In this document: positions 30,801 to 57,800 of the stretch, piece after piece | Layout: each line of letters opens with the position of its first letter | Numbering within the stretch: the first letter of the stretch is position 1 | Made by a program: the position numbers | NCBI RefSeq assembly: GCF_902652985.1 | Contig: NC_047030.1 | Span: 24,242,001 to 24,306,000 of the forward strand | Source: Pecten maximus | Lineage: Eukaryota | DNA length: 64,000 nucleotides | Direction: 5' to 3'

Positions 30801-33800
30801 AAATATTTACGTCATATCAGACATTACTGCTTTTGAAGCTTTAAAAGCCCTAACATCGGAAAGCACAATTAGGAGAAAAAGAAAGACAAGGATTGATACA
30901 CCTAACCCTCCTAAAGATTTCGAAACCACTCGGTCGTCAGGCCAGCTGACTTTCCTTCGTTTGTACCGGCTTGTATTGTTCTTCATTGTTTCTAGTTCTT
31001 GTTTTAACAAGGCTACGTTCTGCATGATTAACGATATATTTGCATTTGCTGGCAATTCCCAAGATATATTGATAGCACAGCTACTTCTGTCTAAATGTGA
31101 AATGGGCATGGAATTGGCAGTCTCGTTGGTTGGTGCACACGTTGCAGTAGTGTTCGTGGCGGTGGTACCAGGATCGGAAGACCCGGTAGTGGTAACGACA
31201 GCACTGGTTGTGTCTATAGAGGTTGTAACGGAAGGATTCAAAGTGGAACAGATGTTGGATGACTGGTGACAGACATCTACATACGGAACACGTGGTACTT
31301 GTTCCTTCGATACTGTTGAAAGAAAATACATGAGTTAGTTGTATTTTGAATGTTTGTGTTTAGCTGGAAGACTCTGAGTTGATATCATGGTTCATTGTCT
31401 TTGCTTATTGACATTGTGGAACGTACGCGCAACAACAAAGATTATATTCTCATGATGATGTATTAGTGACATTCATGAAATATTTTCAGATTATTTCAGA
31501 AATGAAATCCAACTTTCACCGACAAATTATATAATAATATACATACTATATATATATGTGTGTAAATCTGATGACAACATGTATTATTAATTTATTACAT
31601 CTGTAATGTGTTCAGTGCATTGTAAAACAATAAAGGTTCATGCCATTGAATCCCATTTACAGCAAAATGTTTCGGGTATTGAAATTGTTAAAATCCCATG
31701 GTAGTTTATTTTGTATTGTTAAGATGTTTTATCCAAATACAAAGCTGAATACTTAAGTGAACCTACAGCATAATATGATTTGCTAGATCGGTACAATGAT
31801 GATTTGGCTGATGCCCTATATGTGTTACATGCAAGTTCCATAACATTTTCTAGAATAATAATGTTCAAACCTACTCAGCAAGCATTGTTTCACGTATGTC
31901 ACGTGGTCAGCCTCAGCATCCATCCGGACATTTTCAAATCCAGTGTAGTTAGAGAACAGTAGAACACACTCACAGGAAATGATGTTCATCGTCACTGCCT
32001 GGCAAAATGCGCCCTCTACGATGGAATTGAGACACGTTTCTAAGCAAGATGATTTCAGGGAGTTCGTCTGTAAAGTTATTACTTTTGAAGATATGAGTGA
32101 TAGACTTTCCGTTGCAATGATGGAGTCGTTGAATGCCTCAAATGTACATTCATCTGGAAACAAAGAAATATAAACATGAATTAAAAAAACAAGCACTATT
32201 ATAGGCGCATATAGGTTAATACGTAAGAACGTAATATATACTGTACATATCATCGTTTACTTTCTCAAGGTCGTAAATAATAAGATTATTGTATTAACTG
32301 GTAATACCACATATTGTTGGAGAGGATTTATAATTCTATCATTGTAGAGAATGAAAAGTACTCCTGTATTATGTGACGATGCTATATATTGGTACTTACC
32401 GAACACTTCTTCACATATGAAGGCGTATTTCTTCTCACAGTCTCTAGTGCGCAGTAATAGGTCGTGAATACGAATGCAAAAATCAACATCACAATCGTTT
32501 GGCTCACCAGGAAAATAGTCTCCCCATTCACTCTTACTGTTATCATCAACCCAGATGAAAGATGTATCCGAACAATTTTCCAGGCCTGGTCTTTCCGCCT
32601 TCAAACCTACCCAGTACTGCGTGTCATATCTGCAAAACAATTTGATATCCATTCGGAATCATTGGATTTTTTCTCAGTCCAAACGTTACTTACTCTTTAA
32701 GAAATGGAAATTATATCATTGAAACCAATATATGAATACATACAAGGACTTGTGTCATTTGGAATAGAAACTGCAGTGGATTGTAAAATGCAGAAATATA
32801 AAATAGAAATGTTACTCAGTTTGTGTCGTGGGAATAAGAAACGACAATGGACATGTGCAATAGGAAATTAAAAATGTAAATAAAGTGTCATGAGAATAAG
32901 AAACACAATTGGCGTGGGTCATTGGGAATAGAAATGGCAACGAGTTAGTGTCTTGGGAATTTGTTTCTTGAACCTTTGTCTTTGGGGATATATATTATTG
33001 GACTGAGTAGCAGGATCTGCCGCATTTGCCGCGGGTGAACTCATGAGTTTGGGCAGCAAATGAGCGCTGACTGCATTCTTGACTGCCTCCTAAGCCGTCG
33101 TTCTTCCAATTTGGTTTTCTCTTTGGCTCAGATTCCTTGATGCGGACGTAGCGTTGCGTCGCTAGCTCTTGCGATCGGAGCCGGCTGCCTCTAATTTTTC
33201 TGTATCAATGCCACCTGCTCTCCAGTTGCAATTCTTCACAAATGACTAATGAATGAGTTGAATTAATAAGTTGCAGTAGATTAGTGTACTTGTACATGCA
33301 ATGTATCCATATTAGTGGTATCGTTATGATATTTAGTCCATGAAGTTTTTGTTTTCTGATTGGTGAACAATTATACATCACCCCTGTGTAATGAAGATGT
33401 GGACATTTATATTAATACTTTTATAGTTAAAAACACTTGGTAAGAGAATATAATCATCCCTTTTGTGTGTAGACAGGGAATTTCAGTAATTGCGCCTCTT
33501 TGTCAACAAGGACCTCCCTCGTACGCGATAACAGTTTTTACGGCAAGACCCGAGCTTAGCAACCAAACTCTTAAAAGTGGGTTGAGATATCCCTGTCCAT
33601 GGAACAGACCCCTCTAGGACTGTATAATTCTCTTACCCTGGACAGGGATATTCGCAGTTTTGCCGGGGTGGGATATTCTTATCTTACCCTAGAGAGAGGA
33701 CAAGCTACTACGTGCACTTATTCTCAATAGGGTGACGTCATTGACGTGACCCAGAACTACTCTAGCGGGGTCATACACATACATATGTTCGTCTGCTTCA

Positions 33801-54800: not shown

Positions 54801-57800
54801 TCGGAATCAATTTTGAATAGATGCCAATTAAAACAGGCAATTGGACTTTACCTTTGGTTTAGTTTGCTTTATTTAACGGCCTATTAACAGCCAGGGTCAT
54901 TTAAGAAGGTGCCAGGTTTTGGAGGTGGAGGAAAGCCGAAATACCATGAGAAAGTACCTGGCAAGTGCCCCATCTGGGTTTCGAACTCGCGACCCAGATG
55001 TGTTTGCAATCATTCATATAAAAGATATATGTCTTGTTATGCAAGATAATTACCAAAGCAATGTAAATATGTTACTTTTTTATCATAATTTTAAATATGA
55101 ATTTCGGATATATGATGGGCCGCGGTGGCCGAGTGGTTAAGGTGGCCCAACACTTTATCACTAGCCCTCCACCTCTTGGTCGCGGGTTCGAAACCCACGT
55201 GGGGCATTTGCCTGCTACTGACCTATTTGTTTTTTCTCCGGGTACGTCGGCTTTTCTCTACCTCCAAAACCAGGCACGTTAAACAAAATAAACCAATAAA
55301 AAGTATATATGCACTAGGTAGAATAAACGCCAATTGAGATCATAATCTACTGTATTATACCGATAAACTGTAAGGTTTAAAGTAATAAAAATAGCTAAGG
55401 ATACATATTCAAAGTGAGACCTAAGAAGGATTACGAGTGAATATGGAGAATGATACTGAGCACAGGATGTGACAAACATAAGAAAGCAGAAGGATTTGTG
55501 TGTTAGACAAGCAGTCTACCCACGTCGACAAGACCAGATAAACAACATACATGTTTTTCATCTTACAAAACTCCACATTCTGTTTTTGTTGGTGTTCCTT
55601 ATCTATTCTGCTCATTTTTATCTTTATCCCCATAAATATGCCGTGTAACAAACTTTGTATATAAGGAAAGGCCGTAAGTAAGTTGTATAACTTTTGTCAA
55701 ATCAATTTACTGTTATCTGCAATAAAATTGATTTAATTTATTGAATTGAATTGAATTGAATTGTTGTTGTAAATCACATCTGCCCAACAATTTTTAATGT
55801 CGTGAACTAAAAAAGAACATTGGTAGGAAAATATATTATCTGGAAATGCTTTCCACTTCATCCACGTTCTTTACCTTTAAGGAAATTGCAAAGGTTAATT
55901 TTTCATAGCAAAGTATTACAGGATTTAAGGAAAGTGCCTTAGCTAACCTTTTTCCCCCGAGCTCCAATAATGCTGTTATATGGAAAATTTTAAGTTAAGG
56001 AATTACGTAAGTTAAGTAACGTTTATGAAGTAGGGACAAGCTTACTTATCGTAAGGAAAGGATATTCAGACTCATTACATCCACCCTTGTTTATATTTTG
56101 TGAAAAAAATGTGAGGGTATAATTCTCGGATAATCTCATGTTGAAATTCAAAATACAAGTATAATCTATAACAGGCAAAATACGCATTTGGTTTAATAGA
56201 AAATAAATATCTTATTAAATATTCCTCAATAGAAGTATTCAATGAAATTAAGGATATGAAATAAACAATCATTCGCTGAACAGTCTAAAGTCATATAATG
56301 TCACAATAGGACACAGCACTAAACACACGTGTGTCTCAATCACAGTTACACAGAAACTAAAAATGCCGTAAATGGTTATCATTGACCAGGTCCTAGTTAA
56401 ACACTGTTATATCATTCGGCAAACTTTTTTTTCTTTAACGATAATCGAAACTTTCAACTTAATATGATACAAATTCGACAAAAACCATCATATTTCATTG
56501 AAAAAATCATTGTGTAACTTAAAGAATTTCTGCGACGAAATTAATACGTTGAATAGCTCATTTTGACTAGATACATTTTCCCATCATCAAGTTTTATTTC
56601 CCTTTACGGAGATATATGTTAGATGGCAATTGGCGTGGTATTTACTATATTTATATATAGAGTTTAAAACAAGTTGATTAATTAGCAAATTGAGATTTCG
56701 TTAGCACAATCTGTATAAAGATTTTAAATTCGTCACATATGTCCTGTACAATTTTTATGTATGTTATTCTTTACACTTTATATGTTTATGAAAATGAAAT
56801 CTTGTCATTGTCATGCGACGCGAGTTTTGAATTACTATAGCCTATCACAGGGACAGTTGTCAGTCATTATCTATTTCCTCCAGACTGGAGATAAATCAAT
56901 GTGTATGTAGTTTTATCAGAGAGAGAGAAAAATACACAATGTAAATATGTCGCGTTACATGAAATCAAAAATAAACAGTTCTTGTATAAATACGGGATGT
57001 TTTAAACTGTTTTCATATTATATTATTAATAATTATGATAACAATATATTTAAATCGACAACACAAAGTCATTAAACGTGTTTATCTGAAATGTCTCAAT
57101 CACCGAGTACAGTGTAACTTTTCTTGCTATATATCACTTAACTTATTTCAATTATAACGTAGCATTCCTGAATTCCATACCTTTGATTCCCCCAATTATA
57201 GTTTAACGTCTCTTGAAATTGGTGTTATTTTTTGTTTTCCTGACCTGTTTTTCCATATTTTCGTTGTTTTTTTTCCTTAATTGTCATTTGATTTCCTCGA
57301 TATTGTGACTTTCCTGATCCGGTGTAATTTTTGTTTTACGTATTATCCCGATTTTTCAAGTTAGTCGGGTGTGTCGCAATTTCTATCTTTTATATCCATG
57401 AACTTTTGGCAGTCACCTTGTTCATGACGATGTCACTCAGATGTATTGCCAATAAAGACTGTTTTAGTTACCTGTAGCGTGTAATGTGTTTGTCTAACAG
57501 AAATAAAATGTGGCATGTTACGGTGTTTGTCGAACAGAAATAAAAATATGTTTAAATACTTACGTAGAGGTAGAATCGAAAGAATAATCCACGTTATCAG
57601 CAATATCATGGCGGTCGAGATGTAGGATAATGGTGTTGGTACCGTGGACATGGTATCTATAGCCGCTACTGTATATAATCTACCTGATATCACAGGGATA
57701 CCAGCCATATGACAACCATTATTGATAAATGGTTCTGGATTTTTTTTTTTTCAATAATGAGACCGACATAAAAAATCTCCTGATAAATTATTAAACTATC

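What the first reader, a model, noticed from the sequence alone, without database searches (positions are those of the whole stretch)
30807..57651. Tandem pair of CTLD-PAN/Apple-stalk-TM receptors with a remodelled lectin site
Seen: two diverged genes share a 230-nt second CTLD exon and phase-1 PAN-like exon modules (one in A, two in B). Both keep EPN but replace the WND strand with (L/F)(R/K)TRDC, and both add two cysteines (GLENC/DNDEC and EPN[DE]C). Established: EPN plus WND form Ca2+ site 2 of mannose-type CTLDs, and PAN/Apple domains mediate protein or glycan binding. Inference: a lineage-specific surface receptor family with an extra long-loop disulfide and altered or Ca-independent ligand binding, with PAN number varied by symmetric exon duplication.
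Basis: partly seen in the sequence, partly recalled or inferred. Interest (0 to 1): 0.75.

Follow-up and report, generated by a model that had tools for sequence, protein, structure and literature searches.

The report
Scallop lectin–PAN membrane protein gene pair
Two neighbouring king-scallop genes encode surface proteins that combine an altered C-type lectin domain with one or two divergent PAN/Apple domains on a sugar-coated stalk; this is a real but fairly ordinary scallop-specific addition to the large bivalve lectin repertoire, and one copy carries a frameshift that removes its membrane anchor.

Summary
The window is Pecten maximus. Gene B is the NCBI model LOC117344552 (P0008), which matches the window over seven exons.

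**Shared gene structure.** Both genes lie on the minus strand. They share a 230-nt second CTLD exon and phase 1-1 middle exons of 279 nt in A and 306 and 273 nt in B.

**Lectin site.** Both keep EPN. (L/F)(R/K)T sits where WND should be, and both carry two added cysteines.

**PAN fold.** Pfam gives no PAN hit. The fold is still supported:
- The AlphaFold model of A's module (pLDDT 82) matches only PAN/Apple structures.
- A profile-profile comparison with true PAN_1 repeats beats 200 of 200 shuffles.
- The only PDB profile hit is a PAN protein.

- Gene B has an 84-nt phase 1-1 linker exon.
- One extra base at 44748 puts B's membrane helix out of frame. The Mizuhopecten ortholog has the helix in frame.

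**Not tested.** The extra disulfide, calcium independence and receptor function remain untested inferences.

**How new.** CTLD+PAN combinations, WND variants and C-terminally anchored lectins are already described elsewhere. Interest is modest.

The parts
36084..36144 (-). Gene A, candidate first coding exon (61 nt; ATG at 36144, hydrophobic signal-like peptide, donor CAG|gtaaga, ends in phase 1)
   Evidence: Phase-aware scan for ATG plus a hydrophobic stretch plus a phase-1 GT donor between the two genes; sequence read. No transcript or database model supports it, so it is a candidate only.
34266..34434 (-). Gene A, CTLD exon 1 (169 nt, phase 1->2)
   Evidence: AG/GT borders and phase. The similarity is weak. 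There is no Lectin_C hit and no BLASTP alignment to B's exon. hhalign to the B-type exon profile scores 15.9, reached by 1 of 200 shuffles. The best PDB matches are CTLD repeats, but at E 0.25 or worse.
32400..32629 (-). Gene A, CTLD exon 2 (230 nt, phase 2->1) with WVGL, GLENC, EPNDC and LRTRDC
   Evidence: Pfam Lectin_C scores 23.2 bits against a gathering score of 22.6. It is 42% identical to B's exon. Alignment to langerin has E 0.018.
31875..32153 (-). Gene A, PAN/Apple-like exon (279 nt, phase 1-1; 7 Cys)
   Evidence: Borders. The AlphaFold2 model has pLDDT 82.1 and pTM 0.75. In Foldseek against the PDB, 4 hits have E<=0.001, all of them the HGF N domain (TM 0.61-0.63). All 38 rows shown are PAN/Apple-bearing entries.
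30807..31312 (-). Gene A, terminal coding exon: Cys-bearing linker, Thr/Ser-rich stalk, basic RYKRRK segment, TM helix, 17-residue tail, stop at 30809-30807
   Evidence: Reading frame. The best 19-residue hydropathy window scores 2.68, and there are 6 NxS/T sites. The junction with the PAN exon is reproduced by database protein P0002.
57564..57651 (-). Gene B, first coding exon (88 nt, ATG at 57651, signal-like hydrophobic peptide, phase 1)
   Evidence: It is 100% identical to residues 1-29 of P0008. Hydropathy is 2.33.
51756..51936 (-). Gene B, CTLD exon 1 (181 nt, phase 1->2)
   Evidence: Lectin_C scores 17.8 bits, E 0.0059, below gathering. It is 100% identical to P0008.
50845..51074 (-). 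Gene B, CTLD exon 2 (230 nt, phase 2->1) with WLGL, DNDEC, WHDC, EPNEC and FKTRDC
   Evidence: Lectin_C scores 19.6 bits on the exon and 32.1 bits on the whole public protein P0008. Alignment to surfactant protein D has E 0.0051.
49297..49602 (-). Gene B, PAN/Apple-like exon 1 (306 nt, phase 1-1; 6 Cys)
   Evidence: The AlphaFold2 model has pLDDT 73.1. In Foldseek, 10 of the first 12 rows are the HGF N domain, but E is 0.27 or worse and TM is 0.37-0.41. The top Atlas feature hits are PAN clusters at 0.93.
48619..48702 (-).
   Evidence: It matches P0008 residues 267-297 (96.8%) and P0001 residues 252-282 (64.5%).
45268..45540 (-). Gene B, PAN/Apple-like exon 2 (273 nt, phase 1-1; 6 Cys)
   Evidence: The six Cys align with those of the other modules. 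The top Atlas feature hits are PAN clusters at 0.93. This module was not folded.
44563..44885 (-). Gene B, terminal exon as annotated: Thr-rich stalk, basic YRRK segment, then an out-of-register tail with no TM (stop 44565-44563)
   Evidence: It is identical to P0008 residues 388-494. The alignment to ortholog P0001 breaks after EDRPSA.
44748..44748 (-). Single extra base (T on the minus strand, not in a homopolymer) relative to the reading of the Mizuhopecten ortholog
   Evidence: EDRPSA ends at 44749 in the in-phase frame, and MSMGI starts at 44747 in the +1 frame. The ortholog reads straight through.
44550..44747 (-). Gene B, TM helix and 45-residue basic tail, still open in the +1 frame (stop 44552-44550)
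   Evidence: Hydropathy is 2.55. It is 64.9% identical over 74 residues to the TM and tail of P0001.

Best explanation
These are two head-to-tail paralogous genes of the king scallop. [quoted passage not shown]

**Shown.**
- The exon anatomy.
- The CTLD assignment.
- The PAN-like fold of A's module.
- The loss of the Asn-Asp of WND while EPN and the acidic residue two places before the next Cys are kept. By alignment this leaves 3 of the 5 usual ligands of Ca2+ site 2.
- The frameshift in B.

**Inferred.**
- The CTLD no longer binds sugar through a canonical Ca2+ at site 2. The Lys/Arg standing in the Asn position may neutralise the remaining carboxylates.
- The two added cysteines probably tie the loop after WIGL to the EPN loop. 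One Cys lies just after the Glu of that loop and the other two residues after EPN. In classical lectins these two loops are bridged by the auxiliary Ca2+ (site-1 geometry recalled, not computed here).
- The CTLD-PAN head is held off the membrane on an O-glycosylated stalk. It acts as a non-signalling binding or adhesion receptor for a glycan or protein ligand.
- A's RYKR motif just outside the membrane could allow shedding by a convertase.
- The reference allele of B has lost its anchor through a one-base insertion. Because the +1 frame is still open and conserved, this is a recent or segregating allele, or an assembly error.
For: **Anatomy and phases:**

**Independent gene models:**
- P0008 (Pecten maximus LOC117344552) matches all seven B exons at 94-100% identity.
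- P0002 reproduces A's last junction.

**CTLD:**
- Lectin_C scores 32.1 bits on P0008 and 33.2 bits on P0001, against a gathering score of 22.6.
- A's 230-nt exon scores 23.2 bits.
- Alignments to langerin and surfactant protein D place EPN on EPN, D on the Glu before the Cys, and F-K-T on W-N-D.

**PAN:**
- Six cysteines are invariant in the three window modules. Four of them stay invariant, and five of the six align throughout, once relatives from another bivalve are added.
- A's module was modelled and searched with Foldseek.
- hhalign of 8 modules against 12 PAN_1 repeats of P0007 gives Prob 74.8, E 2.6e-5 and score 30.9. None of 200 column shuffles reaches that score (mean 9.7, max 19.4).
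- The sole PDB profile hit is the leech antiplatelet protein, a PAN protein, at E 0.025.
- A relative, P0009, is named 'Apple domain-containing' by UniRef.
- Atlas feature hits are 0.93 for both B modules.

**Stalk, TM and frameshift:**. The juxtamembrane and TM region of P0001 matches A's terminal exon at E 0.007.

**Precedent for a basic side chain filling a lectin Ca2+ site:** Lys70 of Codakine, as described in PMC12842671 (passage read).
Against: - No expression, ligand or calcium data exist here.
- None of the 3 modules hits any Pfam PAN family at E<=10. A relative reaches only 15 bits for PAN_3, below the 21.1 gathering score.
- B's first module gave a middling model and no Foldseek hit at E<=0.001. 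B's second module was not folded.
- The first profile-profile try, with 5 sequences, gave only P 0.012. The 3-sequence profile found nothing in the PDB.
- The library search also returned two repeat proteins without PAN at better E-values than the PAN protein, so that E-value alone is weak.
- A's first three junctions and its start exon rest on splice consensus, phase and analogy with B only. A's first CTLD exon has no significant match.
- Conservation of the site motifs rests on three sequences.
- Cysteine totals are odd in both genes: 17 counted over A's exons and 20 over B's through PAN2, the last six on the frameshifted tail excluded. The pairing is therefore not self-evident.
- Bivalve lectins with EPN and a non-WND motif have been reported as Ca2+-dependent (VpClec-2, table in PMC12842671).
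Confidence: 0.6

Rival explanations
1. The CTLD is still a working Ca2+-dependent mannose-type lectin. EPN, the nearby acidic residue and other side chains or backbone carbonyls rebuild site 2, and the proteins are classical pattern-recognition lectins.
For: - EPN and the acidic residue before the Cys are kept in A, B and the Mizuhopecten ortholog despite about 40% identity between A and B.
- Bivalve lectins with EPN and deviant second motifs are listed as Ca2+-dependent in the table of PMC12842671.
Against: - Both the Asn and the Asp of WND are replaced, by Lys/Arg and Thr, in all three sequences. These two residues ligate Ca2+ directly in Codakine (PMC12842671).
- A basic residue at that place would repel Ca2+.
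Confidence: 0.15
2. The proteins work mainly as soluble lectins in mucus or haemolymph rather than as receptors. B is secreted because its anchor is lost, and A is released by cleavage at its RYKR site.
For: - The annotated B protein has a signal-like N terminus and no TM.
- A has RYKRRK, and B and its ortholog have YRRK, a dozen residues outside the helix.
Against: - The TM and tail of B are still open in the +1 frame and 65% identical to the ortholog. The anchor was therefore under constraint until very recently.
- The ortholog and gene A have the TM in frame.
- Cleavage is conjecture.
Confidence: 0.2
3. The locus is decaying. B is a pseudogene in Pecten maximus, and A is a poorly expressed or non-functional copy.
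For: - B carries a frameshift.
- Only a 206-residue partial model of A (P0002) exists in the protein sets, and no whole-length A-type protein was found.
- Bivalve lectin families turn over fast (abstract of PMC10140915, seen in the listing).
Against: - All five A exons and all seven B exons are open, with canonical splice sites.
- B has a single lesion. Its exons are 59-76% identical to the ortholog with no other break.
- The word-indexed search that missed A-type proteins also missed B and its ortholog, so it is insensitive.
Confidence: 0.15
4. The middle exons are not PAN/Apple domains but an unrelated small disulfide-rich fold that looks like PAN by chance.
For: - There is no Pfam PAN hit.
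- There is no PDB hit with the 3-sequence profile.
- The Foldseek result for B's first module is weak.
Against: The Foldseek result for A's module, the profile-profile comparison with its shuffle control, the single PDB profile hit being a PAN protein, the UniRef naming of relative P0009 as Apple domain-containing and the Atlas hits all point the same way.
Confidence: 0.05

Closest known systems
Mizuhopecten yessoensis LOC110460593 (P0001) and Pecten maximus LOC117344552 (P0008), both 'uncharacterized protein'
   Same: P0008 is gene B itself. P0001 is its ortholog: 67% identical over 429 residues, with the same CTLD, two PAN-like modules, linker and stalk.
   Different: P0001 has the membrane helix and tail in frame; P0008 does not. 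Neither has been studied, and a full-text search finds no paper naming either locus.
Nematode CTLD + CW/PAN-3 proteins (class IV of the nematode lectin survey) and Biomphalaria glabrata PAN/Apple + C-lectin gene models
   Same: They combine a C-type lectin domain with PAN modules in one invertebrate protein (PMC5297725 and PMC13712769, passages read).
   Different: The domain order in the snail models is PAN first and then the lectin. Neither passage mentions a mucin stalk plus a C-terminal TM. No sequence relationship was tested here.
Oyster CgCLec-HTM
   Same: It is a bivalve C-type lectin with a C-terminal membrane helix, which the review calls a 'unique' location (PMC12842671, passages read).
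   Different: CgCLec-HTM is described as a single-domain CTL with QPS/WHD motifs and a hemITAM that signals through Syk. The scallop proteins have PAN modules and EPN with (K/R)T, and I saw no such tail motif by eye.
Vertebrate group XIV CTLD proteins (thrombomodulin, CD93, endosialin, CLEC14A). This comparison is recalled, not tested.
   Same: It works alike in layout: type I membrane protein, N-terminal CTLD that does not use the classical Ca2+/sugar site, protein-binding modules, mucin-like stalk, short tail.
   Different: Their middle modules are sushi/EGF, not PAN. There is no evidence of common descent beyond the CTLD, and nothing was computed here.
PAN/Apple domains of HGF, plasminogen, factor XI, leech antiplatelet protein, apicomplexan MIC4/SML-2 and plant S-locus receptor kinase
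   Same: They match the fold of A's module (TM 0.5-0.69) and share the six-Cys spacing. SML-2 and the plant kinases show PAN used in glycan- or ligand-binding ectodomains.
   Different: Sequence identity is 9-17%, and the scallop modules score below every Pfam PAN threshold.

Membership tests
C-type lectin-like domain (Pfam PF00059 Lectin_C) | Profile score at or above the curated gathering score | tested here: met
   P0008 (gene B) scores 32.1 bits and P0001 33.2 bits against 22.6. A's 230-nt exon alone scores 23.2 bits. A's first CTLD exon gives no hit on its own.
C-type lectin-like domain (Pfam PF00059 Lectin_C) | WIGL-type strand and the four core cysteines (C1-C4, C2-C3) | tested here: met
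   WVGL/WLGL, one Cys in the first CTLD exon, and the DFC/DYC, RDC and FIC/ALC cysteines were read and counted. Their connectivity is not testable here.
Ca2+-dependent mannose-type carbohydrate-recognition domain | EPN tripeptide | tested here: met
   EPN aligns with the EPN of langerin and surfactant protein D.
Ca2+-dependent mannose-type carbohydrate-recognition domain | WND strand supplying Asn and Asp to Ca2+ site 2 | tested here: not met
   L-R-T (A), F-K-T (B) and F-R-T (ortholog) stand in its place. These proteins should not be filed as classical mannose-type CRDs.
Ca2+-dependent mannose-type carbohydrate-recognition domain | Ca2+-dependent sugar binding | not testable with these tools
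   This needs recombinant protein, a glycan array with and without EDTA, and a Ca2+ binding assay.
PAN/Apple superfamily (Pfam PAN_1 to PAN_4) | Profile score at or above the gathering score | tested here: not met
   None of the 3 window modules hits a PAN family at E<=10. Relative P0004 scores 15 bits on PAN_3 against 21.1.
PAN/Apple superfamily (Pfam PAN_1 to PAN_4) | Fold: a helix packed on an antiparallel sheet, superposable on solved PAN domains | tested here: met
   Met for A's module: pLDDT 82.1, with Foldseek prob 1.00 and TM 0.61-0.69 to the HGF N domain, leech antiplatelet protein and plasminogen. Inconclusive for B's first module. B's second module was not folded.
PAN/Apple superfamily (Pfam PAN_1 to PAN_4) | Six-cysteine Apple spacing and remote homology to true PAN repeats | tested here: met
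   The six Cys align column for column with PAN_1 repeats of P0007. hhalign gives E 2.6e-5, reached by 0 of 200 shuffles. The single PDB profile hit is a PAN protein, E 0.025. Disulfide connectivity was not tested.
Type I single-pass membrane receptor | N-terminal signal peptide and one C-terminal TM helix in frame | tested here: inconclusive
   A has its TM in frame (hydropathy 2.68) but only a candidate signal exon. B has a signal-like exon confirmed by P0008, but its TM lies in the +1 frame. The ortholog P0001 has both. Hydropathy only; no dedicated predictor was run.

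The most novel reading that the evidence does not exclude
The scallop CTLD is a calcium-free EPN lectin head. A Lys/Arg side chain occupies the place of the site-2 Ca2+, and a new disulfide replaces the auxiliary Ca2+ bridge between the two binding loops. The domain therefore stays folded and ligand-competent without calcium. In addition, gene B segregates as anchored and anchor-less alleles in the population, giving a natural switch between a receptor and a secreted lectin.
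Probability: 0.12. Interest if true: 0.6.

Novelty: new variant of a known kind. Interest (0 to 1): 0.3.

Why it matters
Bivalves have very large and fast-changing C-type lectin repertoires, but few membrane-anchored or multi-domain members have been studied. This pair adds an architecture, CTLD-PAN-mucin stalk-TM, that my full-text searches did not find described for molluscs.

It also offers a compact natural test of what an EPN loop does once the WND half of the calcium site is gone. Separately, it flags a likely mis-end in a public gene model: LOC117344552 lacks the membrane helix that its ortholog has.

Beyond that it is one more lineage-specific lectin family. No long-standing question hangs on it.

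Tried and rejected
**Searches that gave little.**
- Pfam on the exon ORFs and on the exact module peptides gave no PAN hit.
- The PDB profile search with the 3-module alignment gave no hits. The 6-sequence alignment gave one hit.
- The word-indexed homolog search with A's 230-nt exon peptide, set to longer proteins, gave nothing. It also failed to return B and its ortholog, so I give it little weight.
- The first hhalign run, with 5 sequences and match states taken from the first row, gave Prob 3.5 and P 0.012. It was replaced by the 8-sequence run with a shuffle control.
- BLASTP of A's first CTLD exon against B's gave no alignment.

**Tree of the modules.** The tree of the eight modules has only 1 of 5 inner branches well supported and two very long branches. 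I use it only to say that B's two modules are not shown to be sisters.

**Other features looked for.**
- A relic of a second PAN exon in gene A: none by tblastn.
- Rfam and tRNA scans of the whole window: nothing.

**Readings considered and dropped.**
- Programmed frameshifting or a micro-intron at 44748. Nothing supports either, and the public model reads straight through.
- Human origin of the window. It matches a Pecten maximus RefSeq protein at 94-100% over seven exons.

**Left unchecked or not run.**
- The genome-contig collection (bacteria and archaea) was not scanned because it cannot hold scallop loci.
- Whether an A-type gene exists in other scallops stayed unchecked.
The supplements of PMC10140915 may list these loci among Pecten maximus lectins.

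**Joined step.** Window sequence went in exon by exon. Whole-protein comparisons used the public proteins P0008 and P0001 exactly as the tools returned them.

Full report
**What the window is.** The 64-kb window has no N and about 35% G+C. A public protein, 'uncharacterized protein LOC117344552 [Pecten maximus]' (P0008, 494 aa), was returned by a homolog search. It matches the window's minus strand at 94-100% identity in seven blocks, from 57651 down to 44566. The window is therefore king-scallop DNA, not human, and gene B of the finding is an annotated but unstudied gene. A full-text search finds no paper containing this locus name or that of its ortholog.

**Exon anatomy.** I read all borders on the minus strand and tabulated them with their AG and GT flanks.

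| Gene | Exon | Coordinates | Length | Phase |
|---|---|---|---|---|
| A | candidate start exon | 36144-36084 | 61 nt | ends in phase 1 |
| A | CTLD exon 1 | 34434-34266 | 169 nt | 1->2 |
| A | CTLD exon 2 | 32629-32400 | 230 nt | 2->1 |
| A | PAN-like | 32153-31875 | 279 nt | 1-1 |
| A | terminal | 31312-30810, stop 30809-30807 | 503 nt coding | – |
| B | start exon | 57651-57564 | 88 nt | ends in phase 1 |
| B | CTLD exon 1 | 51936-51756 | 181 nt | 1->2 |
| B | CTLD exon 2 | 51074-50845 | 230 nt | 2->1 |
| B | PAN-like 1 | 49602-49297 | 306 nt | 1-1 |
| B | linker | 48702-48619 | 84 nt | 1-1 |
| B | PAN-like 2 | 45540-45268 | 273 nt | 1-1 |
| B | terminal | from 44885 | – | – |

- The coding lengths add up to 414 codons for A and 494 for B. 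The latter is the length of P0008.
- B's junctions are those of the public model.
- Of A's junctions, only the last is independently reproduced, by the 206-residue database protein P0002.
- A's start exon is a candidate from a phase-aware scan and has no other support.
Window sequence was always sent exon by exon.

**The lectin domain.**
- The two 230-nt exons give peptides that are 42% identical (30 of 72, E 3e-23).
- Pfam Lectin_C is passed by the whole public proteins: 32.1 bits for P0008 and 33.2 for P0001, against a cut-off of 22.6. A's 230-nt exon alone also passes, at 23.2 bits.
- B's two CTLD exons score below the cut-off on their own, and A's first CTLD exon gives no hit.
- A's first CTLD exon shows only weak likeness to B's. 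BLASTP finds no alignment. A profile comparison scores 15.9, reached by 1 of 200 shuffles. Its best PDB matches are CTLD repeats at E 0.25 or worse.
- In the HMMER alignments to langerin and surfactant protein D, EPN falls on EPN. An Asp two residues before the next Cys falls on the Glu of the classical site. F-K-T of B falls on W-N-D, and for A the WND columns are gapped. The Mizuhopecten ortholog has EPN, Glu and F-R-T.
- By alignment, then, three of the five usual site-2 ligands remain. The Asn-Asp pair is gone in all three sequences and a basic residue stands where the Asn was. Which residues ligate calcium in classical lectins I take from recall and from the description of Codakine in PMC12842671 (passage read).
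- Both genes add one Cys in the loop after WIGL (GLENC in A, DNDEC in B) and one two residues after EPN. B and its ortholog add a third (WHDC/WNDC).
- That the first two form a disulfide is an inference. In classical lectins the loop after WIGL and the residue after EPN share the auxiliary calcium (recalled), so they should be close. No coordinates were available to me.

**The middle exons.**
- Pfam gives no PAN hit for any of the three modules, even at E 10. A three-sequence profile finds nothing in the PDB.
- The three modules share six cysteines in Apple-like spacing.
- A profile of the three modules was searched against 1.84 billion representative proteins and returned 7 proteins at E<=0.001:
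  - the Mizuhopecten ortholog P0001;
  - the partial gene A model P0002;
  - two small proteins, P0004 and P0006;
  - a 2291-residue protein with 12 PAN_1 repeats, P0007 (E 7.4e-4);
  - two repeat proteins without PAN, P0003 and P0005, which I take as spurious.
- A later search names P0004 and a further relative, P0009, as proteins of the freshwater mussel Potamilus streckersoni. UniRef names P0009 'Apple domain-containing'. P0004 touches PAN_3 at 15 bits, below the cut-off.
- AlphaFold2 on A's module, with a five-row alignment, gave pLDDT 82.1 and pTM 0.75. Foldseek against the PDB gave 4 hits at E<=0.001, all the HGF N domain. All 38 rows displayed are PAN/Apple-bearing entries: HGF 20, plasminogen 3, factor XI/prekallikrein 4, SML-2 3, HAI-1 MANEC 2, leech antiplatelet protein 1, S-locus receptor kinase 1, MIC4 1, and 3 rows of a fungal copper oxidase whose PAN domain I only recall.
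- B's first module gave a weaker model (pLDDT 73.1) and no hit at E<=0.001. Ten of the first 12 rows were the HGF N domain, at TM 0.37-0.41.
- Language-model feature searches put PAN clusters on top at 0.93 for both B modules. These are leads only.
- Locally, hhalign of eight modules against the 12 PAN_1 repeats of P0007 aligned all six cysteines over 77 columns, with Prob 74.8, E 2.6e-5 and score 30.9. None of 200 column-shuffled controls reached that score (mean 9.7, sd 2.1, max 19.4). An earlier five-sequence run gave only P 0.012.
- A six-sequence profile hits one PDB sequence at E<=10, the leech antiplatelet protein, a PAN protein (E 0.025).
- Taken together, the modules are divergent PAN/Apple domains. 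The evidence is strongest for A's module and extends by family relationship to B's.

**Stalk, anchor and the frameshift.**
- A's terminal exon encodes a Cys-bearing linker, a Thr/Ser-rich run with 6 NxS/T sites, RYKRRK, a helix (hydropathy 2.68) and a 17-residue tail.
- In B the in-phase frame gives a Thr-rich stalk and YRRK, and runs as far as EDRPSA (ending at 44749). It then continues into a tail with no similarity to the ortholog and no hydrophobic stretch.
- B's helix (hydropathy 2.55) and a basic 45-residue tail start at 44747 in the +1 frame.
- The ortholog reads EDRPSA and then straight into the helix. The window therefore carries one extra base at 44748, and it is not in a homopolymer.
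- The +1 frame stays open to its stop and is 64.9% identical to the ortholog over 74 residues. That is in the range of the other exons, 59-76%.
- I infer a very recent or segregating lesion, or an assembly error, rather than an old pseudogene.
- The juxtamembrane and helix region of the ortholog also matches A's terminal exon (E 0.007), so the anchor is ancestral to the pair.

**Distribution and history.**
- Whole-length relatives were found only in two scallops. Small single-module relatives occur in a unionid mussel.
'Scallop-specific' therefore means 'as far as these sets show'.
- B's two modules are 25% identical to each other. Each is 60-80% identical to its Mizuhopecten counterpart. A's module is 30% identical to B's first module and 17% to its second.
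- In a weakly supported tree, A's module groups with the first-module type.
- Symmetric phase 1-1 exons make gain or loss easy. The data do not say whether B gained a module or A lost one.

**How it probably works.**
- The layout is that of a type I surface glycoprotein whose CTLD-PAN head stands on an O-glycosylated stalk. I saw no signalling motif in either tail by eye.
- I think it most likely a non-signalling binding or adhesion receptor.
- Its CTLD probably no longer uses the classical calcium-sugar mechanism. Its PAN modules add a second binding surface, in the way PAN domains bind proteins or glycans in the solved relatives listed.
- A's RYKR motif may allow shedding.
- All of this paragraph is inference.

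**Comparison with what is known.**
- CTLD+PAN proteins are described in nematodes (PMC5297725, passages) and in snail gene models (PMC13712769, passages).
- Deviant WND motifs next to EPN are tabulated for many bivalve lectins, and a C-terminally anchored oyster lectin, CgCLec-HTM, signals through a hemITAM (PMC12842671, passages).
- A bivalve-wide lectin survey includes Pecten maximus but does not mention PAN (PMC10140915, passages). I could not see its supplements.
- A search for 'C-type lectin', 'PAN domain' and 'bivalve' together found no paper.
- The vertebrate thrombomodulin/CD93 group is the nearest analogue in layout. That comparison is recalled, not tested.
- I file the pair as a new variant of a known kind, and the interest is modest.

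**Surroundings.** The window is a lectin neighbourhood; details are under Noticed in passing. No RNA family or tRNA was found.

Noticed in passing
window 19386-19733 (+) and 27109-27372 (+), with a likely upstream exon at 24810-25091 (+): Two near-identical C-type lectin last exons of another subfamily (QPH with WSD). Lectin_C scores 23.4 and 23.0 bits. The window is therefore a lectin gene cluster.
   Followed up: partly
window 13477-13860 (-) and 14970-15263 (-): ORFs that look by eye like the two halves of a further CTLD gene (QPN, WED, a CxxGW start). There is no Pfam hit at E<=0.01.
   Followed up: partly
window 8965-9243 (+): An exon encoding the start of a DnaJ (J) domain: 42.6 bits, E 6.4e-11. 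The rest of that gene was not traced.
   Followed up: no
window 42399-44343: A 33-nt minisatellite of 59 copies (91% matches) fills part of the 8.4-kb spacer between gene B and gene A.
   Followed up: no
window 46858-47747 and 52173-53031: Two further minisatellites lie inside gene B introns: 51 nt x 17.5 copies and 47 nt x 18.3 copies. The first gives a long spurious ORF on the plus strand.
   Followed up: no
window 37829-38010, 38560-38880, 45703-45734, 49747-49864, 54876-55002, 55131-55277: A dispersed repeat of about 150-320 bp is present in 6 places (75-91% identity to the copy used as query). All copies lie in introns or the spacer. It has no tRNA or Rfam match.
   Followed up: partly
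window 30930-30990 (-) and 44770-44800 (-): A conserved basic motif lies just outside the membrane helix: RYKRRK in A, and YRRK in B and its ortholog. In A it fits the minimal R-x-K/R-R convertase pattern (pattern recalled). This hints at ectodomain shedding.
   Followed up: no
gene A exons 31875-32153 and 30810-31312; gene B exons 50845-51074 and 48619-48702: Cysteine counts are odd: A's PAN exon has 7 and B's second CTLD exon has 6. B's linker exon has a single Cys that is conserved in the ortholog. This suggests an interdomain or intermolecular disulfide.
   Followed up: no
public protein P0008 (gene B model) against window 44550-44885: The public Pecten maximus model ends in a frameshifted tail and lacks the membrane helix that the Mizuhopecten ortholog has. 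The annotation, or the base at 44748, deserves a check.
   Followed up: yes
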